Shown here in pieces: positions 22,422 through 43,039 of a DNA stretch of 64,000 nt. The notes beneath the pieces are model-generated. The model had not been told where the DNA came from and made no database searches. It saw nothing but the letters and a program-made list of their open reading frames with translations. Source of the stretch: Anaerovoracaceae bacterium (GTDB lineage: Bacteria > Bacillota > Clostridia > Peptostreptococcales > Anaerovoracaceae); assembly GCA_045545455.1 (NCBI GenBank), contig JAZQAY010000120.1, positions 1,195-65,194 on the forward strand. Reading direction: 5' to 3'. Within the stretch, counting starts at the first letter, position 1, and each line of letters starts with the position of its first letter. A program made the position numbers and the translations under genes.

Positions 22422-23338
22422 TGATAAAACTCATAATGCTTACCGGATTCTTAGGATCCGGTAAGACTACTTTACTTCAAAAGTTAATAGATGAGTATGC
22501 CGGATCGAGGACCGGCATACTCATCAATGAGTTCGGTGCCGTAAGCGTCGATTCCGATATCATAAGAAGAGACGGTCTTCAGATGACGGAACTGTCCAAC
22601 GGCTCAATTTTTTGCGCCTGCATAAAGGATAAGTTCGTGGATGCCCTTATAGAGCTTTCGGGAAAGGATCTTGACTATCTTTTCATCGAGGCTTCCGGGC
22701 TTGCGGACCCCGCCAACATGAACGATATCCTGGAAGGCATCGCTCCAAGGCTCGAGAGAGGATTTGAATACCTCCACTCTTTCTGCGTGATAGACGGATC
22801 GGGTTTCATGGATCTTCTGGACGTTCTGGAATCCCTGAGGCATCAGGTATCCTTCAGCGATATAGTGATCCTTAACAAGCGCGATCTCATCACTGATGAG
22901 CAGGAAAAAGAGATCTGTTCTGCGGTCCTGGAGCTTAACCCGGAGGCAAATATTATTCCTGCCAGCTACTGTGATATAGACATAAGATCGGCGATGGATT
23001 CTCCTTCCGGTATCCGTAAGGATTCCGAGGAGAGCTCCAACACCTTTGCAGCCCGTCCGGTGACAGTCATTTTAAAGGAAAGGCAGCCCGTAAACCAAGA
23101 AGATCTCATGGACTTCATCAGCGAGATCGCAGGATCCACCTACAGGATCAAGGGCTTTCTGAATACTGATAAGGGCATGATGAAGCTGGATTGCGTGGGA
23201 ACTGAGATATCTGTTGAACCATGGAACGGAGAGATAACCGAGGTCAAGGCTGTCGTCATCTCCTCCGTAGGTATAAGGATAGTTACGGTGGTCACCCAAG
23301 CCATGATGAAATATACGAAAGGAAGCCTTACGCTTTGA
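22421..23338 (+). CDS. CobW/COG0523-family G3E GTPase (metallochaperone-like)
   Basis: 305 aa with a P-loop (GFLGSGKTTLL). The region around the usual CxCC reads NGSIFCAC. NKRD guanine-specificity motif. The start overlaps the upstream stop (TAATG). Confidence 0.7.
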   Translation: MIKLIMLTGFLGSGKTTLLQKLIDEYAGSRTGILINEFGAVSVDSDIIRRDGLQMTELSNGSIFCACIKDKFVDALIELSGKDLDYLFIEASGLADPANMNDILEGIAPRLERGFEYLHSFCVIDGSGFMDLLDVLESLRHQVSFSDIVILNKRDLITDEQEKEICSAVLELNPEANIIPASYCDIDIRSAMDSPSGIRKDSEESSNTFAARPVTVILKERQPVNQEDLMDFISEIAGSTYRIKGFLNTDKGMMKLDCVGTEISVEPWNGEITEVKAVVISSVGIRIVTVVTQAMMKYTKGSLTL

Positions 23339-23343
23339 GCACA

Positions 23344-23718
23344 ATGAACGTTATCTGCTCATGTCAGGGCAGAAATCTGGACAAGTTCATACAGCCCCAT
23401 ATACTTCTGCTCCTCTGTAAAAGACCTATGTACGGCCTGGAGATCATAAACGGACTTGAAAAAATGCCTATGTTCTCCGGTTCCCGTCCCGACCCCACAG
23501 GAGTCTACCGGTATCTTAAGAGGATGGAAGCAGACGGTCAGCTCTCTTCTGAGATGAAGGCAGATATGCCCGGGGAAAAGCCCAGAAAGACTTACAGCAT
23601 CACAGAAGAAGGAAAGAATTGTCTCGCAAGCTGGGCGGTATCCCTGGGGCAATACTCAGTCGATATCATAGGCCTCGTGAGCGAGATCGAAAACGTCCTG
23701 GATAATGAAAGCAAATAA
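23344..23718 (+). CDS. PadR-family transcriptional regulator
   Basis: Start moved to the ATG at 23344. The winged helix LLLLCKRPMYGLEIINGLEKM...GVYRYLKRMEADGQL...KTYSITEEG is the PadR signature. Confidence 0.7.
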   Translation: MNVICSCQGRNLDKFIQPHILLLLCKRPMYGLEIINGLEKMPMFSGSRPDPTGVYRYLKRMEADGQLSSEMKADMPGEKPRKTYSITEEGKNCLASWAVSLGQYSVDIIGLVSEIENVLDNESK

Positions 23719-23754
23719 AAAGACTTACCGTATAAATTTTCGGTAAGTCTTTTT
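23717..23754. terminator. bidirectional terminator
   Basis: AAAAGACTTACCG-(10 nt)-CGGTAAGTCTTTT. Confidence 0.6.
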
Positions 23755-23772
23755 ATGATTTTATGGTAAAGG

Positions 23773-24663
23773 CTATTTTTTACTTCTGATATGCCCTATC
23801 ACAGAACCGGCGGTGAAATAATCGCCGTTTTCTATTTCATGAGTAAGGTAACCATCGCATTCAGCGGTGAACTCTATGACCTTCTTGTCGGCTTCCGCCC
23901 CACATATCGGCTCTCCCCTCTTCACGAAAGATCCCGCAGGTTTTTCCCAGTTTATGTAGCATGTGCTTTCAGCTATATCCACAGGTTCATACTGGCAGGC
24001 ACAGTCCTTTGAAGGATCGGCCTTAGGCATCATCTGTCCCGGAACCGTTATCGGACATCCCTTCTCCGTATTTCTCAAATGCCTCTCAAAGAACGGGCAG
24101 TTCATTCCAAGACACTCCTTGTTCTCTTTGGAATATTTACAGACAAGGTCTTCCTTGAACTTTATGTTAAGGCCCAGCTTTTCATTGATATACGGGATGG
24201 CTTCCCAAAGCGAAAGATAGCAGGTACGCTTACAGCATCTTGGACCGCCATAGCTAGCGATCCTTATCAGGCAATGTCCCGTAAGCTCATTTGCCCATTT
24301 CCAGTTCTCAATTGAAAGCGGTGAAGCGCTGGTATATACCGACAGGAATATTCCGGCTCCTACGGATGATCCGCAGTTGCCCATGTTGCCACAGACTCCT
24401 CCGGGCACTTCCTTGGCTCTCGCTTCCGCCAGATCCAGCCATTCCCTGAGTTTATCCTCTTTATAATACTTTTCCATAGCAGCCATGGTAAGAAGCGTTG
24501 CCGGCACTATGAAATGATGGTAAGGGCAATGGATGATCACTCCCTCCAGATCCATCAGCTCATTTATCATCTCGTCCGCTCTTGATACAGATCTTTCCTT
24601 CAGGATATCAACGCAGCGATCCTTTATTCTGTCGTATACTTCCTGTTTCAGTTCAAATGCCAT
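23773..24663 (-). CDS. Cys-rich protein of unknown function with C-terminal lipoyl/biotinyl-like domain
   Basis: About 296 aa from the ATG at 24663 (GGAGG SD), with about 20 Cys. The C-terminus GEPICGAEADKKVIEFTAECDGYL...GSVIGHI fits the E-x-DK lipoyl-attachment beta-barrel pattern. The stop codon is TAG. Confidence 0.45.
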   Translation of the reverse strand: MAFELKQEVYDRIKDRCVDILKERSVSRADEMINELMDLEGVIIHCPYHHFIVPATLLTMAAMEKYYKEDKLREWLDLAEARAKEVPGGVCGNMGNCGSSVGAGIFLSVYTSASPLSIENWKWANELTGHCLIRIASYGGPRCCKRTCYLSLWEAIPYINEKLGLNIKFKEDLVCKYSKENKECLGMNCPFFERHLRNTEKGCPITVPGQMMPKADPSKDCACQYEPVDIAESTCYINWEKPAGSFVKRGEPICGAEADKKVIEFTAECDGYLTHEIENGDYFTAGSVIGHIRSKK

Positions 24664-24731
24664 ACGCACCTCCGGGTCAGCTATTAGACTTTGTCTAATA
24701 GAATATTACCACATTTCCCGGTCCATATCAA

Positions 24732-24763
24732 GAAAAAACACATGACCGGCTTTAATAAGCCGG
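24732..24763 (-). terminator. weak terminator-like hairpin after the activase gene
   Basis: CCGGCTT-ATTA-AAGCCGG on the minus strand. The T-run starts 7 nt after the stem. Confidence 0.35.
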
Positions 24764-24806
24764 CCATATGCTTGTCTTTATATAACTTTACAGAGAATAA
24801 TTCGCT

Positions 24807-25748
24807 TTATTTTCTTGCCTGTTTTCCCAGGACCTCGCATTTCATGCCAAGGCTCTCGAAGTAAGCCTTTATCTCCTCCACCCTGTCGTCAGCGGGAGGT
24901 TCGAAAGTCTCAGGAGTCTTGCCAACGTTTCTGGTCTTTGATACTCCCAGCGTGTGGTAAGGAAGGAGGAAAACGTCCTCGAGTCCCAGCTCCCTGTACA
25001 GTTCTCCGGATCTCTTTATGATATCCTCCGTATCGTTCACTCCCTTGATAAGGGGCATCCTCATCATGATCTTAGGAAGCACTTCGGGATCCTTCGCAAG
25101 GGTCCGCAGATTGTTCAGGATGATCTCATTGGAGTGACCTGTGTAAGCCTTATGTACCTCATCATCGATAGCCTTCATGTCGAAGAGAATGTTGGTGACA
25201 GCGGGCTTCTTAGCCATGGCATAGAGTCTTTCTCCGTCTCCATAACCTGAAGTATCGAGACAAACACCTATGCCCTCCTCTTCAGCCAGCTCTATGAGAG
25301 CATCGCAAAAGTCAGGCTGTGCCAGCATCTCACCTCCCGAAAGAGTCATGCCTCCGCCTGTGTGGTCATAGAATCCCTTATCCTGCTTCACGTACTTCAT
25401 TACCTCTTCAGGCGTCATCTCCTCGGCCACAGGATCCAGAGAATTGGCATAGCATACTTCCGTGCACTTCATGCACATGTCGCACTTCTCACGGTCTATG
25501 TCGATCTTTCCCTTTTCGTCAACGAAGATAGCGTTCTGAGGACATTCCTTGATACAGTAGCCGCACTTGATGCAGCTGTTGGGAAGTCTGATGATCTCCT
25601 GTCCGAAATCTATCATCTCAGGATTGTGGCACCACCTGCAGTTAAGAGGACAGCCCTTGAGGAAGACCGTCGTCCTGATACCGGGACCGTCTTCAGTACT
25701 GAACTTCTGCAGCGACCCCACAAGAGCCGTTAACTTCTTATCACTCAT
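24807..25748 (-). CDS. glycyl-radical enzyme activating enzyme (radical SAM)
   Basis: 313 aa with CPLNCRWCHNPE plus two ferredoxin-type clusters (CIKCGYCIKECP, CDMCMKCTEVC). Confidence 0.85.
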   Translation of the reverse strand: MSDKKLTALVGSLQKFSTEDGPGIRTTVFLKGCPLNCRWCHNPEMIDFGQEIIRLPNSCIKCGYCIKECPQNAIFVDEKGKIDIDREKCDMCMKCTEVCYANSLDPVAEEMTPEEVMKYVKQDKGFYDHTGGGMTLSGGEMLAQPDFCDALIELAEEEGIGVCLDTSGYGDGERLYAMAKKPAVTNILFDMKAIDDEVHKAYTGHSNEIILNNLRTLAKDPEVLPKIMMRMPLIKGVNDTEDIIKRSGELYRELGLEDVFLLPYHTLGVSKTRNVGKTPETFEPPADDRVEEIKAYFESLGMKCEVLGKQARK

Positions 25749-25789
25749 TTACATACACTCCTTAAATGGGCATAATAAGTCAAATCACC

Positions 25790-26081
25790 GGCAGCCTGTA
25801 TATATTTGCGGTTTCCGCAGAAGTGCTGGATCAGCCTGCGCAGAAACGAAGCTGAGCGGCCAGATGTCCGAAACTGTCTGAGCTATCTGTCAAATCAGTA
25901 GGTGCTGTGTGAAGAGAGAGGCACTGCATGCTCACATGCGAGTGCATCTCTATGAACAGAGCAGCGAACGCAGTTCGCGCTGATTTGACAGATTGGCGAG
26001 TTTTTCGGGCTCTCCGCAAAGCAAGTTTCGAGCAGTCTCTGATCCAAACGACGAGGACTTAGCAAATATATACAGACTGCC
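25790..26081. repeat. 292-nt nested imperfect inverted repeat (rod-like hairpin) between the GRE and its activase
   Basis: The outer arms GGCAGCCTGTATATATTTGC / GCAAATATATACAGACTGCC match at 19 of 20 positions. GGATCAG/CTGATCC follows inward. An inner perfect 14-bp pair is ATCTGTCAAATCAG (25885-25898) / CTGATTTGACAGAT (25980-25993). There are apical sub-hairpins. Confidence 0.7.
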
Positions 26082-26099
26082 AGTCAATTTTAAGCTATA

Positions 26100-28493
26100 T
26101 TATGCGGTCTCTTCCTCTTCCAGATGAGCTGTTCTGTAGATGATGGCTTCCTGAGCGCTTTCATCGAGCTCTGTGAAGTAAGCCATGTATCCCGCTACAC
26201 GGACCATGAGTCCCTTGTAGTTTTCGGGATTCTTCTGAGCGTCTCTTAAAGTCTTGGTATCTACAACGTTGATCTGGATGTGCTCTCCGCCGTGATCGAA
26301 GAAGGTCTTGATAACACCTTCGATGATGTTGAGTCCCTTTTCACCTTCAACGCCCTTAGGATCGAATCTCAGGTTGAAGAGTGCTCCGTCGTGGAATGCA
26401 TCCTGTCCCATGGAAGCTACTGAAAGAACTGTAGCTGTAGGACCGTTCACGTCTCTTCCCATCATAGGAGAAGCGTTGTCGCAGAGAGGTTCTCCGGCAA
26501 GTCTTCCGTCGGGAAGCGCTCCGGTCACCTGTCCGTGTGAAACGTTTACAGTCTGTGAGTGGACGTTGAATGAGTACCAGCCGCCTCTTGCATCATGCCA
26601 TGTCTGTACGTTGTCTGCGATGAAGTGCATCATCTCTCTGTAGATGGCATCTACGTGCTCGTTATCGTTACCGAACTTGGGGGCCTTGTTCATGAGAAGC
26701 TGTCTGAGTCTCTCATATCCAACGAAGTTAGCGTCACAGGCCTTGATGAGCTCGTCCATGGTGCAGTCTTTATCTTCGAATACGCACTTCTCTACAGCTG
26801 CAATGGAGTCAGCCAGGTTGGCAGCTCCTGTGATGTAGAGACCGGCTGTGGAGTACTTGGCTCCGCCGTGCTGTACGGACTTGCCGGACTCTACGCATCC
26901 CTTGGTGACCATGGATGCGAAGATGACGGGATATCTGTTCATATGGATGGACTGCATGAGATTGTAGCCTATCCTGATCAGGTCATAGTGATGAAGGATC
27001 TGCTTCTTGAGAGCATCCTTGAATTCCTCGATATCCTTGAACTCTCTGGGATCTCCGGTCTGAAGTCCCATGAGTTTTCCTGTTGAAGGATCCACGCCGT
27101 TATGGAGTACGAATTCCAGCATCTTACCCATGTTGACGTAACCTGCATCGGGGGAACCGTCTGTGGATCCGCCTCCGGGACCGGGCTGGATGCATCCTAC
27201 GATGGTCCAGTCTCTGGCTTCCTCGATGGAGCAGCCCTTGCCGAGTGCCATCTTCATGGCAGCGTTATCGTTGAAGAATCCGGGGTTGGCCTGGCCGTCC
27301 TGGATCATCTCGCAGCCCTTCTTGATGAGGTCTTCGGGAGTTCCTTCCCAGACTCTGACAGCCATAACGGGCTGAGTTGTCTTAAGACGGTTTGCAACTT
27401 CAAGGCACATGTATGAGAGTTCGTTGGTTGCATCTCCGCCTTCGGGCTTCTGTCCGCCTACCACCAGGATCTCCCACATGGGATATCCGGCAAATGACGT
27501 AGCGTACCAGTTGTCTCTTACTTCATATACTTCGCAGGATTTGAGATACAGACAAGCCAGAAGTTCGAATGCTTCCTCTTCCGTGATATTCTTCTCGTCA
27601 ACTACGTCCTTCTTGTAGTAGGGCCACATGTACTGGTCGAATCTTCCGTAGCCGTTTGCAGTGGTGCATACTTCGATGTGGAAGAATACGTGAACGAACC
27701 AGATCATCTGAAGCGCCTGCCAGAAGGTCTGAGGGGGATTCTCGGGAACTACTCTGCAGTTAGCTGCTATCTGGAGGAGTTCAGCCTTTCTCTTCTCGTC
27801 TGTGCATTCTGCTGCCTGACGCTCTGCCTCTTCAGCCATTCTGTGTGCATAGGTGATAAGTCCGCCGCACTGGATGATGCAGGCCTTCCAGTAGTCGATC
27901 TTAGCCTGGTCTTCCATTGACTGAGGAACAAGGTTATCGATGTTTCTCTGGCACTCGTCCATATATCCCCTGATACCTACGGTGAGGATCTTCTCATGGT
28001 CGCAGGTGGTCTCACCGGATACACCATTTGTAAGTCCGACTGTGATGATATCATCCTTCATGCACTCTCTGATGTGAGGAGGGAAAGCTGTTGCGGCGAT
28101 GTCTTCCATTGCCTTGCCATCCCAGTACTTAAGAGTCTCAAGGATCTTCTCCCTGTCTTCAGGAGTGATGTCATAAGGGTCCTTGGATCTGGTAGTGAAT
28201 TCGTCGATATCGGAAATGTACCATGAGCTGGACTGGAATTCAGGATAGAGGTTAGCTCCTCTGTATCTGTCAGTAGCTGTACCTACGACCAGTTCGTCCT
28301 CCATGATCAGAGTCGTCATGTGTTCCATGACATAGTTGCAAACCTTTGCTCTGAAGATGGGAACTGCATCTCCTGCAAACTGCTTGTATGCTTCCGTTGC
28401 CAGAACGATACGCTCTGCTGTGATGGCAGGTCTGGTGTTCCAGAGTTTTTCTCTCATTCTGGTAAGTCTTTCGTTCAAATAAATGTCTTTCAT
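26100..28493 (-). CDS. glycyl radical enzyme (PFL-like fold), substrate unknown
   Basis: 797 aa with the glycyl radical motif RVAGY (G768). The Cys loop is TIVGCIQPG (C434), 334 residues upstream of G768, which is the eliminase-type spacing. Confidence 0.9.
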   Translation of the reverse strand: MKDIYLNERLTRMREKLWNTRPAITAERIVLATEAYKQFAGDAVPIFRAKVCNYVMEHMTTLIMEDELVVGTATDRYRGANLYPEFQSSSWYISDIDEFTTRSKDPYDITPEDREKILETLKYWDGKAMEDIAATAFPPHIRECMKDDIITVGLTNGVSGETTCDHEKILTVGIRGYMDECQRNIDNLVPQSMEDQAKIDYWKACIIQCGGLITYAHRMAEEAERQAAECTDEKRKAELLQIAANCRVVPENPPQTFWQALQMIWFVHVFFHIEVCTTANGYGRFDQYMWPYYKKDVVDEKNITEEEAFELLACLYLKSCEVYEVRDNWYATSFAGYPMWEILVVGGQKPEGGDATNELSYMCLEVANRLKTTQPVMAVRVWEGTPEDLIKKGCEMIQDGQANPGFFNDNAAMKMALGKGCSIEEARDWTIVGCIQPGPGGGSTDGSPDAGYVNMGKMLEFVLHNGVDPSTGKLMGLQTGDPREFKDIEEFKDALKKQILHHYDLIRIGYNLMQSIHMNRYPVIFASMVTKGCVESGKSVQHGGAKYSTAGLYITGAANLADSIAAVEKCVFEDKDCTMDELIKACDANFVGYERLRQLLMNKAPKFGNDNEHVDAIYREMMHFIADNVQTWHDARGGWYSFNVHSQTVNVSHGQVTGALPDGRLAGEPLCDNASPMMGRDVNGPTATVLSVASMGQDAFHDGALFNLRFDPKGVEGEKGLNIIEGVIKTFFDHGGEHIQINVVDTKTLRDAQKNPENYKGLMVRVAGYMAYFTELDESAQEAIIYRTAHLEEEETA

Positions 28494-28519
28494 ATTTTCC
28501 TCCGTAAAAACTTGGGGGG

Positions 28520-29278
28520 TTAGCCTAACATCATACCGCCGTCGATAAGCAGGTTGGTGGAGTTTACATAGCTTGCATCATCTGTGCAGAGCCAGTATAC
28601 GCCGTTTGCCATTTCCATGGGCTGTGCAGTTCTTCCCATGGGCCCGAGGGTGATGGAAGCGTGGCCGCCTGTGATCTGGTTGTAATCATCAAGTGACTGT
28701 CTGAGCATGTTGGTGTCTACCCAGCCGGGTGATACAGAATTGCATCTGATACCGAACTCAGCATATTCGTTTGCAACGTTCTTGGTCATACCGATGACCG
28801 CCCACTTGCTGGAGCCGTAACCGATCTCCCAGGTGTAGCCTGTCATACCGGAAACTGAACCGAAGTTTACGATGGCTCCCTTCTTCTGTTCCACCATCTG
28901 AGGAAGAGTATACTTCATCATGAGGAAGGTTCCGTAAACGTTGATCTCATATATCTTCTTGAAGTTTTCGAAGGTATAATCGATTGTCGGAGCATACTTG
29001 CCGCAGATGCCTGCCGTATTTACCAGTGCATCGATCCTGCCGCAGTCCTCAACGATTTTGGCGATGGTTGCCTTTACTTCCTCTTCGGAAGAAACATCAA
29101 GTGTATAGAAGGCAACTTTATCATCAGGGAATCCCATCTCTTCCTTTGCCTTCTGAAGCGGTGCCTCAACTATATCAAGCATGCATGCAAAGTATCCGTT
29201 ATCAAGGAATTTCTTTACTACGTTCTTTCCAATGCCGCCGCCGGCTCCTGTAACAACTACTACCTTCTCAGTTTTCAT
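28520..29278 (-). CDS. short-chain dehydrogenase/reductase (SDR)
   Basis: Start at MKTEKVVVVTGAGGGIGK (GGAGGT SD). Has the TGxxxGIG and YGSSK catalytic motifs. Confidence 0.85.
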   Translation of the reverse strand: MKTEKVVVVTGAGGGIGKNVVKKFLDNGYFACMLDIVEAPLQKAKEEMGFPDDKVAFYTLDVSSEEEVKATIAKIVEDCGRIDALVNTAGICGKYAPTIDYTFENFKKIYEINVYGTFLMMKYTLPQMVEQKKGAIVNFGSVSGMTGYTWEIGYGSSKWAVIGMTKNVANEYAEFGIRCNSVSPGWVDTNMLRQSLDDYNQITGGHASITLGPMGRTAQPMEMANGVYWLCTDDASYVNSTNLLIDGGMMLG

Positions 29279-29327
29279 TTGACTACCTCCGTAATTGTAT
29301 CTAAGAATCATTACTAACTATCCATGC

Positions 29328-29349
29328 AGATATCAGCGCGCTGATATCT
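29328..29349. promoter_or_regulatory. 22-bp perfect palindrome upstream of the SDR-GRE operon
   Basis: AGATATCAGCG|CGCTGATATCT, about 50 nt upstream of the SDR start, in the divergent region shared with the AraC gene. Confidence 0.5.
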
Positions 29350-29518
29350 ATTATTATTGTAATTTAGAGGCGATTTTACCGCAACAATTAAGTTGCTCTA
29401 AAAATCGATTTTTTTGCTTAGAAACTCTAAAAAGGTATTTTAATAAATACCCATTTTGGAGTATAATAAACACATGGACATAAAGAAAGCAAAATAATCA
29501 TTGAAAAAGGAAAAAAGT

Positions 29519-31381
29519 ATGCTTTTCGAAAAGATAACATATCAGGATGATTTTCCCATCAACATAACCATAGCAAACATAAAAGAGTATCCCATACACT
29601 ACCATCAGGATACGGAGTTCGTTCTGGTGCTCAGGGGTGAGATAGCTCTTAAAAACGGCTACTGCACATATCTGCTCCATGAAGGCGATATCTTCACCAA
29701 TTCCGGTCATGAAGTACATAGCCTCATGTCCACAGGAGAGGATAACATCGTAGCCGTAATACAGCTGAGCACCCACTATTTTTCACAGTACTTCCCGAAC
29801 CTGACCAAGGCCTGCTACAGGACCTATACCAACAAGGGGCATACCCAGAAGCATGATACTCTGAGGGAGAAGCTTCTGGAGATACTTCTTCAGTATTCCA
29901 CCAAGGGTTTCAACTACAGATCCGAGTGCACCTACATGATGGTGGACGTCATCAAATACGTGGATAAGTACTTCAATCTTTTTGCTTTTGATAACGACGT
30001 GGTCGTAAACTTCGAATCATCGAATCAGATAACAATCGACCGTATAAGCAGGATAATAAGCTACATATACGAATTCCATTCAGAGCAGATCACCCTGAAC
30101 GATCTGGCAGATATGGAGCATCTTTCAACCTTCTATCTCAGCCACATCATCAAGGACTATACCGGAATGAACTTCAGGGAGTTCCTCTGCTTCGCAAGAG
30201 TCGAATGGTCCGAGATAGATCTTTTGGAAACCAATAAAAAGATATCCAGGATAGCCCGGGACGTTGGCTTTTCAACAACGTCGTACTACGAAAAATACTT
30301 CAAAAAATGGTTCGGCACGGATCCTCAGACCTATCGGGAAGAGCACATGCCCATGGTAATGAGCGATATCAAAAAAGGCGAGCTCATAATGCTGAACCCC
30401 AATGAATCGGTCTCAGTGATAAGGCAGGCACTTTCAAGGCTTAATTCTCAGACTCCCAGTAACGTTCACGTGAACGCCCTTAAGCTGGAACTGAACGTTA
30501 ATACCGAAGCGCCCATGATCTCCTCCATAGATCATTATCTGGAAGTCCTGATTACCCTGAACGATTTCAGAGTGCTTGGCTATTCCATCTTTGGCATCCT
30601 TCAGGAACTCAATCCCAGGAAAGTCACAGTGCTCACTGAGCCCGAGGATTCCCTTTCCGATATAAACAGGATAAAGATCCTGCTCACTTCCGCAGGATTC
30701 GAGGTGGGTCTCAACGAGAACCCAAGGTCGAACCATATGGCTCACTACGGGTACGACTCCATAGCCTATCCCATCTTCCTTTTCAACAGGATAATCAATT
30801 CCAAGGAGTCCTGGGTGAAATTCAGATTAAGAGACCCCGACAACAACAGGAACAACGATATCATCAAGGGGTACCCCGCCGCCGTCACGTCAGAGGGAAT
30901 AAAAAAGCCGGCCTTTTATGCATACCAGGCCCTGAGCAATATTTCCGGTGAGATCATCTACTGGGGAAAGCAATACTGTGTCATCCGCTCTTACCGCGCA
31001 TCTGAACCGTACTTTATAGTGATCTGCTACAACTTCAATGAGCAGATCTACAATCTCTGCCTTAAGGAATCAACGCCGCAGAACGTGAAAGACGTGATAA
31101 ACGACTTCAAGGATGAAATAGATATCTCCATGAATATGACCATCGACCAGGGTATGTATAACATAATGAAATATTCCCTGGATAAGAGCAACGGCATATT
31201 CTCGTATCTGTCCACGCTTAATTTCCCTTCAGAGCTGACCGTGCTTCACAGGCTGCCTTCAGCCTTCTCCACACAGCCGGATCTGGACGTATACACGGAA
31301 GACGTAAGAGCTACATTCAATATCAACTTCTCGATAAAGGGAGCAGGAATACAGCTGGCTATAATCTCACCCAAGGAGTAA
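29519..31381 (+). CDS. AraC-family regulator (N-terminal cupin, central HTH, ~330-aa uncharacterised C-terminal extension)
   Basis: Cupin segment PIHYHQDTEFVLVLRGE and AraC HTH IARDVGFSTTSYYEKYFKKWFGTDPQTYR. Start taken at the ATG at 29519 (the track starts at a TTG at 29501). Confidence 0.7.
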   Translation: MLFEKITYQDDFPINITIANIKEYPIHYHQDTEFVLVLRGEIALKNGYCTYLLHEGDIFTNSGHEVHSLMSTGEDNIVAVIQLSTHYFSQYFPNLTKACYRTYTNKGHTQKHDTLREKLLEILLQYSTKGFNYRSECTYMMVDVIKYVDKYFNLFAFDNDVVVNFESSNQITIDRISRIISYIYEFHSEQITLNDLADMEHLSTFYLSHIIKDYTGMNFREFLCFARVEWSEIDLLETNKKISRIARDVGFSTTSYYEKYFKKWFGTDPQTYREEHMPMVMSDIKKGELIMLNPNESVSVIRQALSRLNSQTPSNVHVNALKLELNVNTEAPMISSIDHYLEVLITLNDFRVLGYSIFGILQELNPRKVTVLTEPEDSLSDINRIKILLTSAGFEVGLNENPRSNHMAHYGYDSIAYPIFLFNRIINSKESWVKFRLRDPDNNRNNDIIKGYPAAVTSEGIKKPAFYAYQALSNISGEIIYWGKQYCVIRSYRASEPYFIVICYNFNEQIYNLCLKESTPQNVKDVINDFKDEIDISMNMTIDQGMYNIMKYSLDKSNGIFSYLSTLNFPSELTVLHRLPSAFSTQPDLDVYTEDVRATFNINFSIKGAGIQLAIISPKE

Positions 31382-31384
31382 AAC

Positions 31385-32305
31385 GTGAAAGAAATCAAAC
31401 ACAGCCGCGAACTCATATCCGTCTTAGGCCTGACCCTGGCTGCGATGTTCTGGGGGATAAGCTATCCCCTCACCAAGTTCGTTGAAGACGTACCGACATT
31501 CTACATAATATCACTGCGCTTCATCCTTGCAGCGGTCGTGCTTGCAGTGTGTTTCTTCAGACATTTCAGAAACTTCAATTTTGACACGCTTAAATATTCA
31601 TTCATACTGAGTTTCATACTCACCGCGATGTACATCTTCAACATCGTGGGAGTGAAGTATACGACTTCCGTCAAGGCTTCATTCTTCACCACGCTGAGTT
31701 TCCTCGTTTGCCCTGTGATAAATCTCATCCTTTACAAGATGAAGATACAGAAGTTCATCGGGATAAGCGCCCTGATCTGCCTGGCAGGGACCTGTATGCT
31801 CTGCTATACTCCGGATATGGGTAAACTTGTTATAAACTTCGGTGACATACTCTGTGCCCTCGCTTCCATCGCAGGCGCCATCAACATCATATACATGGAA
31901 AAGATGTCTCACAAAGAGAATATAGATAATACTCTCTTCACCATCTTCCTCATGGCATTTATCGCGATATGGGGCACGGTCATCGCCCTTGTAAGAGGTG
32001 AATTCGCTTACCACTCCATGGTAACAGGAGGACAGATGACGGCCATCGTGCTCATGGGACTGTTCTCGAGCGCGGGAGCGTTCATACTTCAGATACATTG
32101 CGAGAAGCATGTGCCTTCCAACAGGGTCGGCATAATCTTTTCCCTTGAACCGGCATCCGGCTGCATCCTCTCAGTCCTTCTTATACATGAGACCATGTCC
32201 CTCATAGGCTGGATGGGAGCTTTAGTGATAATGATATCCATATTGTATATGGAATTTGCAAATAACAGACAACAGGCAAGACTTAATACGGAAGGCGTGA
32301 ATTGA
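31385..32305 (+). CDS. EamA/DMT-family transporter
   Basis: 306 aa, about 10 TM, with two EamA repeats. GTG start. Confidence 0.7.
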   Translation: MKEIKHSRELISVLGLTLAAMFWGISYPLTKFVEDVPTFYIISLRFILAAVVLAVCFFRHFRNFNFDTLKYSFILSFILTAMYIFNIVGVKYTTSVKASFFTTLSFLVCPVINLILYKMKIQKFIGISALICLAGTCMLCYTPDMGKLVINFGDILCALASIAGAINIIYMEKMSHKENIDNTLFTIFLMAFIAIWGTVIALVRGEFAYHSMVTGGQMTAIVLMGLFSSAGAFILQIHCEKHVPSNRVGIIFSLEPASGCILSVLLIHETMSLIGWMGALVIMISILYMEFANNRQQARLNTEGVN

Positions 32306-32306
32306 A

Positions 32307-32840
32307 ATGGACAGAAATTACACCGTAACAAGATTTGAAACAGACATACCTGTAGATGAGCTGATAAAAGACTACTTTGATTACAATAAGACCCATGAAC
32401 TCTGCAAGGCCTGCTCAGGATATGCAGGCACCTGGGCCTGCCCTCCCTTCGATTTCGAACCGGAGGATTTTCTGAGGCAGTTCTCAGTCTTTCACCTGAT
32501 CGTGGACCGCATCGATAACTCGGGTGCAGCAAACGTCGACGAAGCTCAGGACAGGCTCTTCACAGAAAAGGACCGCTACGATGCTGAGCTTCTGGAACTT
32601 GAAAAGAACACTCCCGGAAGCTACGGTATGGCCGCTCAGGAGTGCGTTCAGTGCAAAAAATGCGCCCGCCTTTCGGGTCACCCCTGCGTGCACCCCGATA
32701 AGATGCGCTACAGTCTGGAGTCCATAGGAGCCTTCCCCGTCAAACTGGTGCACGACAAGTTCGGCTTCGATATCCTATGGTCAGATGGAGAATCCATACC
32801 CGAGTACTACCTGCTGGTAGCAGGCTTACTGAAGAAATAA
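32307..32840 (+). CDS. DUF2284-like predicted metal-binding protein
   Basis: 177 aa with the Cys clusters CKACSGYAGTWACPP and CVQCKKCARLSGHPC. Confidence 0.45.
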   Translation: MDRNYTVTRFETDIPVDELIKDYFDYNKTHELCKACSGYAGTWACPPFDFEPEDFLRQFSVFHLIVDRIDNSGAANVDEAQDRLFTEKDRYDAELLELEKNTPGSYGMAAQECVQCKKCARLSGHPCVHPDKMRYSLESIGAFPVKLVHDKFGFDILWSDGESIPEYYLLVAGLLKK

Positions 32841-32870
32841 AAAGAGCAGTTGAACTGCTCTTTATTTTTT
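32841..32870. terminator. terminator hairpin
   Basis: AAAGAGCAG-TTGAA-CTGCTCTTT followed by ATTTTTT. Confidence 0.5.
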
Positions 32871-33371
32871 CTTATCCTTTTGTTTTTTCTCGGCCTTCTT
32901 GCGCTGCATGGCATAAGCCATCTTGGCTTTTCTTTCCTCTTCTGCCCTTGCAGCCTCTTCCTCGGTGAAATCTTCCACACGGATGTTCGGATTCATGCGT
33001 TTGATGAAATCCATCACGTCCTGCACTTCGGATTTCCTGAATACGAAGCCTCTGATGGTCACGTCTTTCGCGATCTCCAGGAGCACGTTCGGCTTGGCCT
33101 TGGTGTAATCAGGACGGACTATGGTGATGACGTCCCAGGTCCAGGTGTACGGTATCCTGATGCCGAAAAGGTTATATACTATGTGAACTCCTTTTTTATC
33201 AATTATGTGTTCCTTGGTGTAGAACACCGCGGTCAGCATGACGACCGCCATGATCATATAGAGATAGTTTCTCATCTGATATGACAGGAAAAGTATTATA
33301 CCGGTCACTACTACCAGTATTATCTTTCTTTCAGGAGTCCTTGTCTTAACTATTCCTTTATACTGTTCCAT
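32862..33371 (-). CDS. hypothetical membrane protein with Lys/Glu-rich tail
   Basis: 169 aa with two N-terminal TM helices. No family recognised. Confidence 0.4.
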   Translation of the reverse strand: MEQYKGIVKTRTPERKIILVVVTGIILFLSYQMRNYLYMIMAVVMLTAVFYTKEHIIDKKGVHIVYNLFGIRIPYTWTWDVITIVRPDYTKAKPNVLLEIAKDVTIRGFVFRKSEVQDVMDFIKRMNPNIRVEDFTEEEAARAEEERKAKMAYAMQRKKAEKKQKDKKK

Positions 33372-33473: not shown

Positions 33474-35006
33474 TTATTCGCCGATGTTCTTGTAGGTTCC
33501 GTTAGCTCTAAGTTCTGCCAGTCTTTCCATTGCATGAGCATGTGCTTCCTCAGGTGCAGCGGGTACGGGACCCTGCTTTACCTTTCCGCCGAAGATGCCG
33601 GTGTGTGAACCATCAGCATAGATGATGTTTCCGCCCCAGGCAGCTGTAGCGATGGAAACGATAGGGCTCAGGATGTTAGCAAATGCGAAAGGCAGATAGC
33701 TCAGTGTGGGAACTCCCATGATGCCTGAGTGATATACACCGCAGGTGGACCAGGGTACCAGAGGGCTGAACAGCGTTCCGCCGTCCTCCTGGCATCTTGA
33801 CAGGAAGTTCCTTGCAAGACCCATATCGTCGACCTTCTCCTTATACATTGATGAAGGAATGATCATGCCGAGATACTGGTCGCACATGGTAAGGATTACG
33901 AACATAGCGGAGCATACGATGGCAACACACATATGGAAAGGTGTCTTGATGTTCTTGATCAGTCCGCCGAGGAGTGACTCGATGCAGCCGACTCTTGCAT
34001 ACATACCGCCCATTGCGATGGCGATGAGCGCCATGTTGATGGTCCAGAGCATGGAGTCCATTCCTCCTCTGGTCATCAGAGCATCAGCAAGTTCGTTACC
34101 AGTTTCTGTTGCATATCCGTAGTGAGTCATTCCGATGCAGTCAGCAAAGCTTGCACCCTGGAAGATAACTGCGAACAGGCAGCCTACTGCAGCAGCGAGA
34201 AGTACGCCGGGAACAGCAGGGATCTTGAATACTGCGATGCCGATGATGAAGAGTACAGGGATGAGAAGCACAGGGCTCATGTAGTTGTAGTTGCCCTGGA
34301 TAGCATCGGATACACCCTGAACGAGTTCAGGATCATATTCACCTACATTGCCTGCAAGTGAGATCACGCAGTAGATAAGGAAAGCAATGAGGAATGTAGG
34401 ACCTGTGGTTCCTACGAGCGCTCTTACGTGGTCGAAAAGACCTGTCTGAGCGGATGCAGGTGAAAGGTTTGTGGTATCTGACAGAGGTGAGAACTTATCA
34501 CCTGTGCAGGCTCCGGAAAGAACAGCACCTGCGATGAGACCGGGATTGACTCCCATGGTTGCTCCGATGGTAAGGAATGCGATACCCAGAGTAGCTGTGG
34601 TGGTGTATGATGAACCAAGCGCAGTAGCTACGATCAGGCAAAGCAGACATACCGTAGGAAGGAAGATCTTGGGAGTGAATAATTTCAGTCCGTAGAATAC
34701 GAGTGCGGGGATCGTACCGCATGCTTCGAAGGATCCGACTAAGCATCCTACGAATAACAGGATGTACATAGCTTCCAGTGACTGTGCCATGGCGTCATAT
34801 CCTGCAGCAAGAACTTCCTTGATGGGGACCTTGCAGAGGAAACCGATGAAACCGATAACGCAGGCTGCGATAAGCACGTACATATGAGGATCCTGTCCCC
34901 ATCCAAGACGGCTGTTTGCAAGCATCAGCCCTAACAGCACGACGATAGGAAGGGCGGCCTCGATCTTACTGGGGAGACGTTCCCCGGCTTTTCTGGTTTC
35001 AGCCAT
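33474..35006 (-). CDS. NhaC-family (Na+/H+ antiporter-like) transporter
   Basis: 510 aa, multi-TM. It is paralogous to 37532..38995 (shared ...GDK.SP.SDTTNL.P..A... and ...LSRC.ED..TL.SPL.PW..CG... blocks). Confidence 0.7.
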   Translation of the reverse strand: MAETRKAGERLPSKIEAALPIVVLLGLMLANSRLGWGQDPHMYVLIAACVIGFIGFLCKVPIKEVLAAGYDAMAQSLEAMYILLFVGCLVGSFEACGTIPALVFYGLKLFTPKIFLPTVCLLCLIVATALGSSYTTTATLGIAFLTIGATMGVNPGLIAGAVLSGACTGDKFSPLSDTTNLSPASAQTGLFDHVRALVGTTGPTFLIAFLIYCVISLAGNVGEYDPELVQGVSDAIQGNYNYMSPVLLIPVLFIIGIAVFKIPAVPGVLLAAAVGCLFAVIFQGASFADCIGMTHYGYATETGNELADALMTRGGMDSMLWTINMALIAIAMGGMYARVGCIESLLGGLIKNIKTPFHMCVAIVCSAMFVILTMCDQYLGMIIPSSMYKEKVDDMGLARNFLSRCQEDGGTLFSPLVPWSTCGVYHSGIMGVPTLSYLPFAFANILSPIVSIATAAWGGNIIYADGSHTGIFGGKVKQGPVPAAPEEAHAHAMERLAELRANGTYKNIGE

Positions 35007-40780: not shown

Positions 40781-41317
40781 CTATTTTTTGATCGGTTTAA
40801 GTGTCCCGTCAACGATCATTCTTGCAACTATCTCAGTGCAGAATGAGACCGCCGTAGCGCAGTGGTGAGTACCGAAGTGCTCCATGTATCCCTGGTCTCC
40901 CTCAGGAGTCTTCCAGTCATAAGCTTCACCCATGTTGTGAGCAAGCACGTCTCTGCAGAGGATGCTGCCATATTCCTTCTTGAAAGTCTCTACCACGTCT
41001 CTGACCATTGCATGGCATTCCTCGTAGTTTCCTCCGAGATCGCTTATGGGTCTTCCCTTTGACATGGAGATGGTCCATGCAGCTCCGAGAAGAGCTCCGC
41101 AGGTACCGTCGAGGCAGCAGCCGCAGCCGCCGGCAAGTCCGAAGCAGCCCCTCAGCATATCCTCGGTGATCCCGAAATCAGGGAAAGCTCTGTAGATGCC
41201 GTGAAGTGTGCTCTGGATACAGTTTCCGTAAAGGGTCTCAGTGGAGTATCCTACGTTTTTAGCCTTAACAACCAAAGCTTCCTTAGCTTCAGGTGTGAGT
41301 TTGGAATAATCAGTCAT
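40781..41317 (-). CDS. C_GCAxxG_C_C family protein
   Basis: 178 aa with the signature GGCGCCLDGTCGALLGA. The stop codon is TAG. Confidence 0.7.
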   Translation of the reverse strand: MTDYSKLTPEAKEALVVKAKNVGYSTETLYGNCIQSTLHGIYRAFPDFGITEDMLRGCFGLAGGCGCCLDGTCGALLGAAWTISMSKGRPISDLGGNYEECHAMVRDVVETFKKEYGSILCRDVLAHNMGEAYDWKTPEGDQGYMEHFGTHHCATAVSFCTEIVARMIVDGTLKPIKK

Positions 41318-41338: not shown

Positions 41339-43039
41339 TTACTTGAAGTTGTATTTATCCACTATGGGCTCTCTTCCCATGGTCTTGTCGTTGAAATATT
41401 CGTAAAGGCTGATGCCCAGGAACGATCCCTGGATGTTCACTACGTTGTCGAAGCCTCTGCCCTTCAGTGCGCAGCAGCAGTAGTAGGATCTCTGCGAAGA
41501 TCTGCAGTGGAGGTATACCGGCTTGTCGGTGGGTATCTCATCCAGTCTCTGGCGGATCTCGCTCTGAGGGATGTTATGCGCTCCCCTGATGTGTCCTGCG
41601 GCAAACTCACCCGGTTCTCTCACGTCGATGATATATGCTCCGGACTCCACCAGCTCTCTTACGTCCTTAAGGTGTACCTGCCTGATATCACCGTTAAGTA
41701 CGTTAAGTCCCACGAGTGCTGCAAAGTTTACGACGTCCTTGGCTGTGGAGAACAGAGGTGCATAGCAGAGCTCCAGCTCCTTCAGGTCTTCAAGGGTAGC
41801 TCCCATGGTGATCATGGCGGCTATTACGTCGACTCTCTTGTCAGCTTCACCCTTACCTATGGCCTGGGCCCCAAGGATCCTTCCTGTGGGTTTCTCAAAT
41901 ATGAGTTTGAATGCCATATAGTGAGCGTTAGGCATGATGCCTACCTTGTCGTTCGGGAAGATAATTACGTAATCGTAATCCATGCCTTCCTTCTCACAGG
42001 TCTTCTCATTGAGTCCCGTGGCAGCAGCGTTCAGTCCGAACACCCTGATGCAGGATGAACCGATGAACCCCTTCATGTGGTTCTCTCTTCCGTACATGTG
42101 GTCTGCAGCGGCCCTTGCCTGTCTCTGGGCAGGTCCTGCCATAGCCAGCCTTCCGGGTTTGCCCGTGAAGAAATTCGGCTGCTCAATAGCGTCTCCAACG
42201 GCGTAGATATCGGGATCCGAAGTCTGCATATTGTGATTTACCTTGATACCGCCTGTAACACCGATCTCAAGTCCTGCAGCCTTGGCCAGGTCTGTCTCCG
42301 GCTTGACACCGATAGCGACCACGACGTTGTCTGCTTCGATCTCGAAGGTCTCTCCGTCCTTCTCAACCACTATGCTGCCCGCTTTGATCTCCTTCAGCAT
42401 CGTGCTGAGATAGAGCTTGACTCCGTTATCGTCCATCTCCTTATGGAGCATCTGGACCATATCGTAGTCATAAGGCTGAAGGATCTGATCCAGTCCTTCC
42501 ACAAGGGTCACTTCCTGACCTGCTTTAGCAAGGTTCTCAGCTACTTCTATACCTACGAAGCCTCCGCCGATAACGGCAGTTTTCTTTCCGGCGTTAAGCA
42601 TGATGGCGTTCTTGATGTTCACAACGTCATTGACCGTCCTTACGGAGAATACGTTGTCTCCGTCTATGCCTTTGATCGATGCCGGCATGATAGGACTTGC
42701 TCCGGGACTCAGCACCAGCTTGTCGTAGCTTTCTTCATACTCCGTTCCCTGAGCCAGATCCTTTACTTTGATTTTTTTGTTCTCGCGGTCGATGGCGACA
42801 ACTTCGTTCTTTACCCTTACTTCGATGTCATGACTCTTCTTGAAGCTGCCGGGGGTCATCATGATGAGGGACCTGTCATCGACCACGGTGCCTCCAAGAT
42901 AATACGGTAAGGAACAGTTGGAATAGGAGACGTAATCTCCTCTGTCAAATACTATAACTTCGGCGGAAGGATCGAGTCTTCTTACACGGGCAGCTGCTGA
43001 TGCGCCGCCGGCTACTCCGCCTACAACTAATAATCTCAT
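41339..43039 (-). CDS. CoA-disulfide reductase-type FAD oxidoreductase with C-terminal rhodanese domain
   Basis: 566 aa with VVGGVAGGASAA, the single redox Cys in SYSNCSLPYY, and the rhodanese loop HCRSSQRS. Confidence 0.8.
   Translation of the reverse strand: MRLLVVGGVAGGASAAARVRRLDPSAEVIVFDRGDYVSYSNCSLPYYLGGTVVDDRSLIMMTPGSFKKSHDIEVRVKNEVVAIDRENKKIKVKDLAQGTEYEESYDKLVLSPGASPIMPASIKGIDGDNVFSVRTVNDVVNIKNAIMLNAGKKTAVIGGGFVGIEVAENLAKAGQEVTLVEGLDQILQPYDYDMVQMLHKEMDDNGVKLYLSTMLKEIKAGSIVVEKDGETFEIEADNVVVAIGVKPETDLAKAAGLEIGVTGGIKVNHNMQTSDPDIYAVGDAIEQPNFFTGKPGRLAMAGPAQRQARAAADHMYGRENHMKGFIGSSCIRVFGLNAAATGLNEKTCEKEGMDYDYVIIFPNDKVGIMPNAHYMAFKLIFEKPTGRILGAQAIGKGEADKRVDVIAAMITMGATLEDLKELELCYAPLFSTAKDVVNFAALVGLNVLNGDIRQVHLKDVRELVESGAYIIDVREPGEFAAGHIRGAHNIPQSEIRQRLDEIPTDKPVYLHCRSSQRSYYCCCALKGRGFDNVVNIQGSFLGISLYEYFNDKTMGREPIVDKYNFK

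What the first reader, a model, noticed from the sequence alone, without database searches (positions are those of the whole stretch)
26100..28493. Orphan glycyl radical enzyme whose Cys loop reads G-C-I-Q-P instead of G-C-V-E-P
The Gly radical site (RVAG768Y) and the thiyl Cys (C434, codon 27194-27192) have the 334-residue spacing of the eliminase class (choline TMA-lyase, hydroxyproline dehydratase, diol dehydratases). In those enzymes the residue at Cys+2 is the catalytic Glu. Here it is Gln436 (CAG, 27188-27186). That argues for different chemistry or a different substrate. An SDR is co-transcribed upstream, and an AraC-type regulator and EamA transporter lie adjacent.
Basis: partly seen in the sequence, partly recalled or inferred. 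Interest (0 to 1): 0.65.

Follow-up and report, generated by a model that had tools for sequence, protein, structure and literature searches.

The report
Glycyl radical enzyme lacking catalytic glutamate
A radical enzyme of unknown substrate, common in gut and rumen bacteria, always carries glutamine where its relatives have their catalytic glutamate and glutamate where they have a nearby histidine, which points to an undescribed substrate or reaction.

Summary
The 797-aa ORF at 26100-28493(-) is a full-length glycyl radical enzyme (GRE). C434 aligns with the catalytic Cys of glycerol and propanediol dehydratase, CutC, HypD and HplG. Q436 sits exactly on their catalytic Glu, and G768 lies in RVAGY.

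It is not orphan in the sense of lacking an activase. A radical-SAM activase follows at 24807-25748(-), and SDR-GRE-activase form one operon.

The Gln is a family trait. All 188 distinct homologues (75-98% identical) have C-x-Q. All also have Glu161 where most relatives have His (GD His164, HypD His160); CutC has Asp216 there. So the carboxylate has probably moved, not vanished.

The family groups with HplG-like clades in a neighbour-joining tree without bootstrap support. It reaches no NCBIfam equivalog cutoff, and I found no paper that characterises it.

Gene context: an NADH-type SDR, or an aldo-keto reductase in other genomes; an AraC regulator; EamA, NhaC and basic-amino-acid-type transporters; M20 amidohydrolases; and often a CoA-disulfide-reductase/rhodanese pair.

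Best reading: a radical C-X lyase or isomerase acting on a small cationic, amino-acid-derived substrate, whose carbonyl product is then reduced. The substrate is unknown.

A non-Glu residue at Cys+2 occurs in about 30% of the nearest GRE clusters, so this is a good discovery lead rather than a unique oddity.

The parts
28520..29311 (-). Short-chain dehydrogenase/reductase, first gene of the operon. It has a TGAGGGIG motif with Asp after strand beta2 (NAD(H)-type) and a YxxxK motif.
   Evidence: Pfam adh_short E 5.4e-55. No NCBIfam equivalog cutoff is reached. The best PDB relatives are ElxO, levodione reductase and hydroxypropyl-CoM dehydrogenase. An orthologue sits directly upstream of the GRE in 31 related loci.
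26100..28493 (-). Glycyl radical enzyme, 797 aa, member of an uncharacterised C-x-Q family.
28011..28013 (-). Codon for Glu161 (GAG). It occupies the position of GD His164, HypD His160 and CutC Asp216.
   Evidence: Mapping. It is invariant in 188 sequences, with both GAA and GAG in use.
27186..27194 (-). Cys-loop core C434-I435-Q436: the thiyl Cys, with Gln in place of the CXE Glu.
26190..26192 (-). Codon for Gly768 (GGA), the glycyl radical site within RVAGY.
24807..25748 (-). GRE-activating radical-SAM enzyme, 313 aa, with CPLNCRWC and two ferredoxin-like Cys motifs.
   Evidence: Pfam Radical_SAM, Fer4_12 and Fer4. NCBIfam TIGR02494 scores 289 bits against a cutoff of 174. It follows the GRE in 61 related loci.
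25749..26099 (-). GRE-activase spacer of 351 nt. It is about 300 nt longer than in relatives.
   Evidence: A metatranscriptome contig joins 25767 to 26070 with 36 other letters. There is no Rfam match and the sequence is not repeated.
24736..24773 (-). Terminator-like hairpin (17-bp stem followed by a T run) ending the SDR-GRE-activase operon.
29373..29402 (-). Promoter-like site upstream of the SDR. This is a consensus match only.
29501..31381 (+). Divergent AraC-family regulator: cupin plus HTH_18 domains, followed by a C-terminal domain of about 340 aa with no family match.
   Evidence: An orthologue is divergent from the GRE operon in 48 related loci.
31385..32305 (+). EamA/DMT-family transporter.
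   Evidence: Pfam EamA E 2.1e-28. It recurs in 14 loci.
32307..32840 (+). DUF2284 predicted metal-binding protein, a recurrent neighbour.
33474..35006 (-). NhaC-family transporter. Its next-best NCBIfam hit is the arginine/ornithine antiporter ArcD, below cutoff. It is a recurrent neighbour.
41339..43039 (-). CoA-disulfide-reductase-like flavoprotein with a C-terminal rhodanese domain. It is linked to the GRE in other genomes; here an inserted MttB cassette separates them by about 12 kb.
   Evidence: It lies in one operon with the GRE in L033, L036 and L047.
40781..41317 (-). C_GCAxxG_C_C putative redox-active protein, the partner of the CoADR-rhodanese gene.

Best explanation
Window 24807-29311(-) is a three-gene operon (NADH-type SDR, glycyl radical enzyme, cognate activase). 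A divergent AraC-type regulator controls it, and EamA and NhaC transporters serve it. The GRE belongs to the PFL2/glycerol-dehydratase branch, that is the 1,2-eliminases and isomerases. It forms its own widespread, uncharacterised family, grouping with HplG-like clades in my tree. Shown: the activase and both radical sites (Gly768, Cys434) are intact and under purifying selection, the fold is that of the diol dehydratases and HplG, and the gene is transcribed in rumen samples. Inferred mechanism: the activase installs the Gly768 radical. Cys434 thiyl abstracts an H atom from a small, positively charged, amino-acid-derived substrate. That substrate is held by Glu161 and Asp449, stacked on Trp340 and hydrogen-bonded to Gln647. 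A neighbouring C-N, C-O or C-S bond then breaks by spin-centre shift. The proton transfers that relatives assign to the Cys-loop Glu are done by Glu161, which has taken the place of the partner His, while Gln436 only orients Glu161 or the substrate. The carbonyl (or imine) product is reduced by the SDR, or by an aldo-keto reductase in other genomes, and exported. The identity of the substrate is not established.
For: The GRE and activase domains are complete. C434/Q436 align with CXE of the solved relatives. The AlphaFold model has pLDDT 94.8 and matches PD, GD and HplG at TM 0.96 and rmsd 1.4-1.5 A. E161, W340, C434, Q436, D449, Q647 and G768 are invariant or near-invariant in 188 sequences, with synonymous codon variation. 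Among 150 cluster representatives the pairing is H+E in 82. E+Q occurs only in this family and its 52-55% relatives, as expected for a compensated swap. In HypD the homologous His160 and Glu436 lie 2.5 A apart and both are essential, and E-to-Q kills HypD and CutC (PMC7077986, PMC7079210). The column mapping was validated with representatives that pass the HypD and CutC equivalog cutoffs. In the NJ tree the family sits beside HplG-like and P0122/P0123 clades that share W340 and Q647. P0122 sits with two P5C reductases and P0123 with a proline-type symporter and D-amino-acid-type oxidoreductases. A reductase accompanies the GRE in 25 of 33 well-flanked loci, as SDR or, non-orthologously, AKR. 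Neighbouring transporters match basic-amino-acid types below their cutoffs: ArcD-like, YfcC-like and an APC amino-acid permease. M20 amidohydrolases and a DDAH also recur. Co-transcription and expression are shown, and the terminator after the activase.
Against: No substrate or activity has been tested. The Glu161-Gln436 contact therefore rests on homology with HypD. PhdB shows that a Cys-loop Gln can be essential without acting as acid or base, so a mechanism with no proton transfer at this site is possible. Subfamily B has no reductase next to it. The reductase could act before the GRE rather than after it. The NJ tree has no bootstrap support, and GD scores as well as HplG by E-value.
Confidence: 0.45

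Rival explanations
1. PhdB-like logic. The Cys-loop Gln marks chemistry that needs no acid/base at this site, for example radical decarboxylation of a carboxylate substrate or another pure H-atom-transfer reaction. Glu161 would then serve only in binding.
For: PhdB has CXQ, and its Q484E, Q484A and Q484L variants are inactive (PMC7079210). The 2026 review lists CXE in all eliminases and isomerases. About 10 of the 150 nearest clusters have Gln at this position.
Against: By NCBIfam scores the family is closest to the eliminase-type models, with the aryl-acetate decarboxylase models (IAD, HPAD) well behind. By sequence, fold and tree the nearest solved relatives are diol dehydratases and HplG. 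No representative of PhdB-like length with CXQ is among the nearest 150. A partner carbonyl reductase, recruited twice independently as SDR and AKR, has no role after a decarboxylation to a hydrocarbon. The pocket is acidic (E161, D449), which argues against a purely anionic substrate.
Confidence: 0.15
2. Sulfur-linked or reductive chemistry. The substrate is a thiol or disulfide-derived amine or amino acid; cysteamine- or cysteine-type compounds released by M20 amidohydrolases are examples. Because a thiol is acidic, no Glu base is needed, and Gln436 hydrogen-bonds the thiol(ate). Alternatively, the GRE carries out a net reduction and is re-reduced by the CoADR-rhodanese/GCAxxG pair.
For: CoADR-rhodanese and/or C_GCAxxG_C_C genes lie within 10 kb in 15 of 33 well-flanked loci, in four different arrangements and in both Anaerovoracaceae and Oscillospiraceae. 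In L033, L036 and L047 they sit inside one tight operon: GRE-AE-M20D-CoADR/RHD-GCAxxG-SDR-hyp-M20D. The window has the pair at 40781-43039. Three Cys residues (C164, C276, C671), nearly invariant in the 75-98% family, lie at or next to pocket-lining segments.
Against: Half of the loci lack the pair nearby, and the AKR/APC-type loci never show it. The 52% relative P0121 shares E161/Q436 and the SDR/NhaC/EamA context but lacks all three extra Cys and the CoADR gene. CoADR-rhodanese enzymes are also general persulfide-detoxification enzymes in sulfide-rich habitats. No chemistry of this kind is known for a PFL-like GRE.
Confidence: 0.15
3. An ordinary, already known activity (diol, glycerol or hydroxyproline dehydratase) that merely tolerates Gln.
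For: The fold and overall similarity are highest to GD and PD. TIGR01774 is just passed, at 680 against a cutoff of 678.2 bits.
Against: Of the GD substrate-contacting positions mapped (H164, H281, S282, Y339, E435, D447, Y640), all but the Asp differ. E-to-Q abolishes activity in HypD and CutC. The equivalog scores are about half their cutoffs. There are no microcompartment, aldehyde dehydrogenase or P5C reductase genes nearby.
Confidence: 0.05
4. A catalytically dead GRE relic.
For: The canonical catalytic Glu is missing.
Against: Both radical sites and the pocket residues are strictly conserved with synonymous codon turnover. The dedicated activase is retained. Transcripts are present in rumen samples. 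At least 80, and up to 275, related loci were found among species-representative genomes.
Confidence: 0.02

Closest known systems
[quoted passage not shown]
   Same: It is 38% identical, with TM 0.96 and rmsd 1.4 A. It falls in the same NJ clade, shares Trp340 and Gln647, has the same Cys-Gly architecture and has an activase partner.
   Different: HplG keeps C-I-E, with Glu429 hydrogen-bonded to the substrate hydroxyl. It has Asn/His where this family has Glu161. Its product is cleaved by a thiolase, whereas here the partner is a reductase.
B12-independent glycerol and 1,2-propanediol dehydratases (PDB 1R8W, 5I2A, 9RCO)
   Same: These give the best sequence and Foldseek scores (E about 1e-170; TM 0.96; 36-37% identity). 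Asp449 corresponds to GD Asp447.
   Different: GD His164 becomes Glu161, His281/Ser282 become Thr278/Ala279, Tyr339 becomes Trp340, Glu435 becomes Gln436, and Tyr640 becomes His645. There is no microcompartment or 1,3-propanediol dehydrogenase context.
[quoted passage not shown]
   Same: The numbering is almost the same. An aromatic residue at 340 stacks on the ring in HypD, and position 647 corresponds to the substrate-binding Thr645. The His160-Glu436 pair marks the spot where this family has Glu161-Gln436.
   Different: The NCBIfam HypD model scores 596 bits against a cutoff of 1100. HypD Asp278 and Asp339 are absent. The E436Q variant of HypD is inactive.
CutC, choline trimethylamine-lyase
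   Same: It has a carboxylate (Asp216) at the position of Glu161, where it contacts the cationic leaving group. It belongs to the same structural class.
   Different: CutC keeps Glu491, and E491Q is dead. The CutC model scores 537 bits against a cutoff of 1050. There is no microcompartment.
PhdB, phenylacetate decarboxylase
   Same: It is the only characterised GRE with C-x-Q, and the Gln is essential.
   Different: It is not a close relative: it is absent from the nearest 150 clusters, and the decarboxylase models score lowest. Its substrate is a hydrophobic carboxylate and it has no reductase partner. I did not have its sequence for a direct comparison.

Membership tests
Glycyl radical enzyme superfamily (PFL-like) | C-terminal glycyl radical motif RVxG[FWY] | tested here: met
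   RVAGY with G768; Pfam Gly_radical E 6.8e-30. It is conserved in all 120 homologues checked.
Glycyl radical enzyme superfamily (PFL-like) | Catalytic Cys on the Cys loop at the barrel centre | tested here: met
   C434 aligns with the thiyl Cys of GD, PD, CutC and HplG. It is present in 149 of 150 representatives.
Glycyl radical enzyme superfamily (PFL-like) | Ten-stranded barrel fold | tested here: met
   The model has pLDDT 94.8 and matches solved GREs at TM 0.92-0.97.
Glycyl radical enzyme superfamily (PFL-like) | Dedicated radical-SAM activase | tested here: met
   The gene at 24807-25748(-) scores 289 bits on TIGR02494 against a cutoff of 174. It is adjacent to the GRE in 61 related loci.
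GRE 1,2-eliminases and isomerases (GD, PD, HypD, CutC, IslA, HpsG, HplG, YbiW, PflD) | C-x-E motif, with the Glu hydrogen-bonded to the substrate | tested here: not met
   The family has C-I-Q, invariant in 188 sequences. The review states that all members retain CXE.
GRE 1,2-eliminases and isomerases | Overall sequence and fold of the PFL2/GD branch | tested here: met
   TIGR01774 scores 680 bits against a cutoff of 678.2. The top fold matches are PD, GD and HplG.
GRE 1,2-eliminases and isomerases | C-X bond cleavage next to the radical carbon (measured activity) | not testable with these tools
   This needs an anaerobic enzyme assay.
HypD / CutC / HpsG / HpfG / IAD / HPAD equivalogs (NCBIfam) | Score above the curated equivalog cutoff | tested here: not met
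   Scores against cutoffs: 596/1100, 537/1050, 543/1000, 529/1000, 453/1100 and 324/1150.
HplG | Glu429 on the Cys loop, and a thiolase that takes the 2-amino-4-ketopentanoate product | tested here: not met
   The family has Gln436. The recurrent neighbours are reductases, not the thiolase pair.
PhdB-type phenylacetate decarboxylase | C-x-Q Cys loop | tested here: met
   PMC7079210.
PhdB-type phenylacetate decarboxylase | Other essential residues (Trp495, Tyr691) and close sequence relationship | tested here: inconclusive
   The PhdB sequence was not on hand. No PhdB-like representative appears among the nearest 150 clusters. The position 13 residues after the Cys is an invariant Ser here, not Trp; this is offset counting only.

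The most novel reading that the evidence does not exclude
The family catalyses a GRE reaction type not yet described. One possibility is radical C-N or C-S cleavage of a substrate without a hydroxyl to deprotonate, such as a thiol- or amine-activated radical. Another is a net reductive cleavage fed by the linked CoA-disulfide-reductase/rhodanese and C_GCAxxG_C_C proteins. In either case a transplanted catalytic dyad (Glu161/Gln436) would replace the His/Glu pair. This would be a new mechanistic subclass of GREs that is active in human-gut and rumen amino-acid fermenters.
Probability: 0.3. Interest if true: 0.8.

Novelty: new variant of a known kind. Interest (0 to 1): 0.55.

Why it matters
GREs carry out key anaerobic steps in gut microbiomes, including formation of TMA from choline, H2S from sulfonates, p-cresol and skatole, and breakdown of hydroxyproline. 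This family is present in at least 80 species-level genomes of human-gut, mouse and ruminant Clostridia, among them Emergencia timonensis, Hornefia butyriciproducens, Ihubacter and Oscillibacter. It is transcribed in the rumen and has no assigned function. Its invariant His/Glu to Glu/Gln swap is a clean natural experiment on the catalytic dyad that defines the eliminase and isomerase classes. Finding the substrate would add a pathway to gut and rumen nitrogen (or sulfur) metabolism. It would also show whether the Cys-loop Glu is dispensable when a carboxylate is supplied from the neighbouring strand.

Tried and rejected
1. I tested whether C533 (KGCVES) is the catalytic Cys and rejected it. 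C434 aligns with the thiyl Cys, and C533 is a general GRE-conserved Cys.

2. The first AlphaFold run, on a shallow family-only alignment, gave pLDDT 72.6 with the active-site segments below 50. I discarded it and repeated the run with 62 diverse sequences.

3. An Rfam scan of 23000-33500 found nothing. The long GRE-activase spacer is not a repeat.

4. The C-terminal domain (about 340 aa) of the AraC regulator has no Pfam or PDB sequence match, so it gives no ligand clue.

5. Literature searches for a characterised GRE of this family, or for a link between GREs and CoADR/rhodanese, found none.

6. Carnitine, gamma-butyrobetaine and GABA are unlikely substrates. E. timonensis SN18 carries a family member (L027). 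It does not consume DL-carnitine or GABA, and gamma-butyrobetaine or carnitine induce only the bbu and riboflavin genes.

7. Coenzyme M or another sulfonate is unlikely. The pocket has Glu161 and His645 at the positions that offset counting from memory, with no alignment, assigns to the sulfonate-binding Gln and Arg of IslA-type enzymes.

8. DUF5714/lipoyl (23773-24669) is not part of the system. It lies after the terminator and is not conserved outside the closest MAGs.

9. DNA runs holding the window are ruminant gut metagenomes only, with shares of at most 0.23, so no exact source was found.
Full report
**The observation**

The minus-strand ORF 26100-28493 encodes 797 residues. Pfam matches PFL-like over its full length (E 4.9e-196) and Gly_radical. 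HMMER alignments to solved structures put G-C434-I-Q436-P on G-C-V-E-P of propanediol dehydratase, CutC and glycerol dehydratase, and on G-C-I-E-P of HplG. Residue mapping reproduces the published GD numbering (C433, E435, H164, G763), so the register is right.

**Not chance, not error**

A search of 5.8 billion proteins returned more than 100 homologues at 78-98% identity, and all have G-C-[IV]-Q-P. In 188 distinct family sequences Q436 is invariant. In 67 genomic loci its codon is CAG 63 times and CAA 4 times. The one-step change to GAG or GAA never occurs. The codons for C434, E161, D449 and G768 also vary synonymously, which is the signature of purifying selection.

- The enzyme has its own activase. 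The ORF at 24807-25748(-) has the CX3CX2C motif and two ferredoxin-like motifs, and it passes TIGR02494 (289 bits against a cutoff of 174).
- SDR, GRE and activase form one operon. SDR and GRE are 26 nt apart, with GGAGG before the GRE ATG.
- A 17-bp terminator-like hairpin follows the activase at 24773-24736.
- Rumen metatranscriptome contigs at 90-99% identity cover the gene. One spans the SDR-GRE junction (27289-29098) and one spans GRE-activase.
- Most important, the residue that partners the Cys-loop Glu in relatives is here an invariant Glu161 (GAG, 28013-28011). That residue is GD His164 and HypD His160, and CutC has Asp216 at the same position.
- I checked the column mapping with representatives that pass the HypD and CutC equivalog cutoffs. 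The HypD representative carries H, D, F, E and T at my columns 161, 278, 340, 436 and 647, matching the published H160, D278, F340, E436 and T645. The CutC representative has Asp at column 161.
- In HypD, His160 and Glu436 are 2.5 A apart and both are essential, and E-to-Q kills HypD and CutC (PMC7077986, PMC7079210).
- Among 150 representatives of the nearest 50%-identity clusters, the 161/436 pair is His+Glu in 82. Glu+Gln occurs only in this family and its 52-55% relatives.

I read this as a compensated swap that keeps one carboxylate in the same corner of the pocket.

**Placement**

- The only NCBIfam cutoff reached is the broad subfamily TIGR01774 (680 against 678.2). The HypD, CutC, HpsG, HpfG, IAD and HPAD equivalogs score at about half their cutoffs or less.
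- The best solved relatives are GD, HplG and PD, at E about 1e-170 and 36-38% identity.
- An AlphaFold model built on a diverse alignment (pLDDT 94.8) matches PD, GD and HplG at TM 0.96 and rmsd 1.4-1.5 A.
- A neighbour-joining tree puts the family with its 52% sister P0121. These lie inside a clade with P0122, P0123 and the HplG cluster representative, and the clade shares Trp340 and Gln647. The tree has no bootstrap support.
- Within that clade the carboxylate appears at different places: E436 in P0123 and HplG, E645 with Q436 in P0122, and E161 with Q436 here.
- The pocket is otherwise remodelled. GD H281/S282, Y339 and Y640 become T278/A279, W340 and H645, and only D447 is kept, as D449.
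- The June 2026 review of the superfamily states that all eliminases and isomerases keep CXE. It names PhdB as the enzyme with an essential Cys-loop Gln.
- I found no paper on this family.

**Gene context**

I fetched 80 related loci from species-representative genomes. They come from Anaerovoracaceae such as Emergencia timonensis, Hornefia, Ihubacter, Senimuribacter and Aminicella, from Oscillibacter, and from many rumen and gut MAGs.

- The activase follows the GRE almost always, and an AraC regulator is divergent in 48 loci.
- Directly upstream lies either an SDR (31 loci) or an aldo-keto reductase (14 loci). The AKR-type loci mostly carry an APC amino-acid permease after the activase.
- Among 33 loci with at least 5 kb on both sides, 25 have a reductase and 15 have a CoA-disulfide-reductase/rhodanese and/or C_GCAxxG_C_C gene.
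- In three rumen MAGs these genes sit in one tight eight-gene operon: GRE-AE-M20D-CoADR/RHD-GCAxxG-SDR-hyp-M20D.
- The window has the CoADR/GCAxxG pair at 40781-43039. An inserted MttB-type methyltransferase cassette separates it from the NhaC gene.
- The transporters resemble ArcD, YfcC and a general amino-acid permease, and a dimethylargininase recurs. All of these are sub-cutoff matches.
- The nearest clades sit with P5C reductases, a proline-type symporter and D-amino-acid-type oxidoreductases.
- The sister clade P0121 repeats the AraC-GRE-AE-SDR-NhaC-EamA module.

**Two subfamilies**

One subfamily has E341/N643/H645/N673 and a reductase. The other has Q341/G643/D645/A673 and only an NhaC-type transporter. 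The window belongs to the first.

**Interpretation**

Best supported is a radical lyase or isomerase acting on a small cationic, amino-acid-derived compound.

- The substrate would be bound by Glu161 and Asp449. Trp340 and Gln647 would play the roles of HypD Phe340 and Thr645.
- Glu161 would take over the proton transfers, and Gln436 would act as a hydrogen-bond partner.
- A carbonyl or imine product would be reduced by the SDR or AKR.

Confidence is moderate (0.45), and the substrate is open. Three rivals remain: a PhdB-like mechanism without acid/base chemistry at this site; thiol-linked or reductive chemistry suggested by the CoADR/rhodanese link; and, unlikely, a known dehydratase activity or a dead enzyme. 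Carnitine, gamma-butyrobetaine and GABA are unlikely substrates, because E. timonensis, a carrier, neither consumes carnitine or GABA nor induces this operon with gamma-butyrobetaine or carnitine.

**Novelty and score**

The finding is real and the family is uncharacterised, widespread and expressed. However, a non-Glu residue at Cys+2 occurs in about 43 of the 150 nearest clusters. The specific His/Glu to Glu/Gln exchange is the distinctive feature. I rate it a new variant of a known kind, with interest 0.55.

Noticed in passing
window 10308-16811 and 11677-11750: The window holds a complete pyrrolysine cassette. It comprises tRNA-Pyl (anticodon CUA) at 11677-11750(-), pylD at 11757-12590, the pylS catalytic subunit at 12604-13449, pylC at 13413-14534 and pylB at 10308-11288. 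All four pyl genes score above their NCBIfam equivalog cutoffs. A RamA/AcsV-like corrinoid activase lies at 14535-16811.
   Followed up: partly
window 17060-18481(-) and about 18520-20011(-): A dimethylamine methyltransferase (mtbB-like) and a trimethylamine methyltransferase (mttB-like) each have an in-frame TAG, at 17425-17423 and 19030-19028. The reading frame continues for about 112 and about 165 residues beyond these codons. They are therefore probably pyrrolysine enzymes in a rumen Clostridia genome. They sit next to a corrinoid protein (20036-20701), an MtaA-like methyltransferase (21057-22421) and a CobW gene, directly beside the GRE operon.
   Followed up: partly
window 35353-40616: A second methyltransferase cassette lies here: an MttB-family protein of 499 aa without an internal stop, an NhaC-type transporter, a PocR-AraC regulator and a corrinoid protein. 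It is inserted between the CoADR-rhodanese/GCAxxG pair and the NhaC/bPH genes, which are contiguous in other genomes.
   Followed up: partly
window 25749-26099: The GRE-activase spacer is 351 nt here, but about 36 nt in related transcripts and under 100 nt in most related loci. It has no Rfam match and is not repeated. The nearest MAG, L001, has a diverged copy (68% identity).
   Followed up: partly
window 23773-24669(-): This gene fuses a DUF5714 domain (distantly similar to the metal-binding selenoprotein MbdU) to a C-terminal biotin/lipoyl-attachment-like domain. It lies just after the operon terminator. It is conserved only in the closest MAGs, and its function is unknown.
   Followed up: no
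L081 1765-4173 and 8001-10373; L018: Some genomes carry two paralogues of the Glu161/Gln436 type side by side. Each has its own AraC regulator, activase and EamA gene. L018 carries one member of each subfamily.
   Followed up: no
L083-L087 (P0122 locus): The related clade with His161, Gln436 and Glu645 sits beside two HplG-like GREs, two P5C reductases, a 2-hydroxyacid dehydrogenase and a MutL/B12-binding pair. This looks like a multi-GRE imino-acid degradation island, and it too is uncharacterised.
   Followed up: partly
window 29501-31381(+), residues about 285-626: The AraC regulator carries a C-terminal domain of about 340 residues with no Pfam or PDB sequence match. The domain is conserved in most related loci but absent from the 380-aa regulator of L033.
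   Followed up: partly
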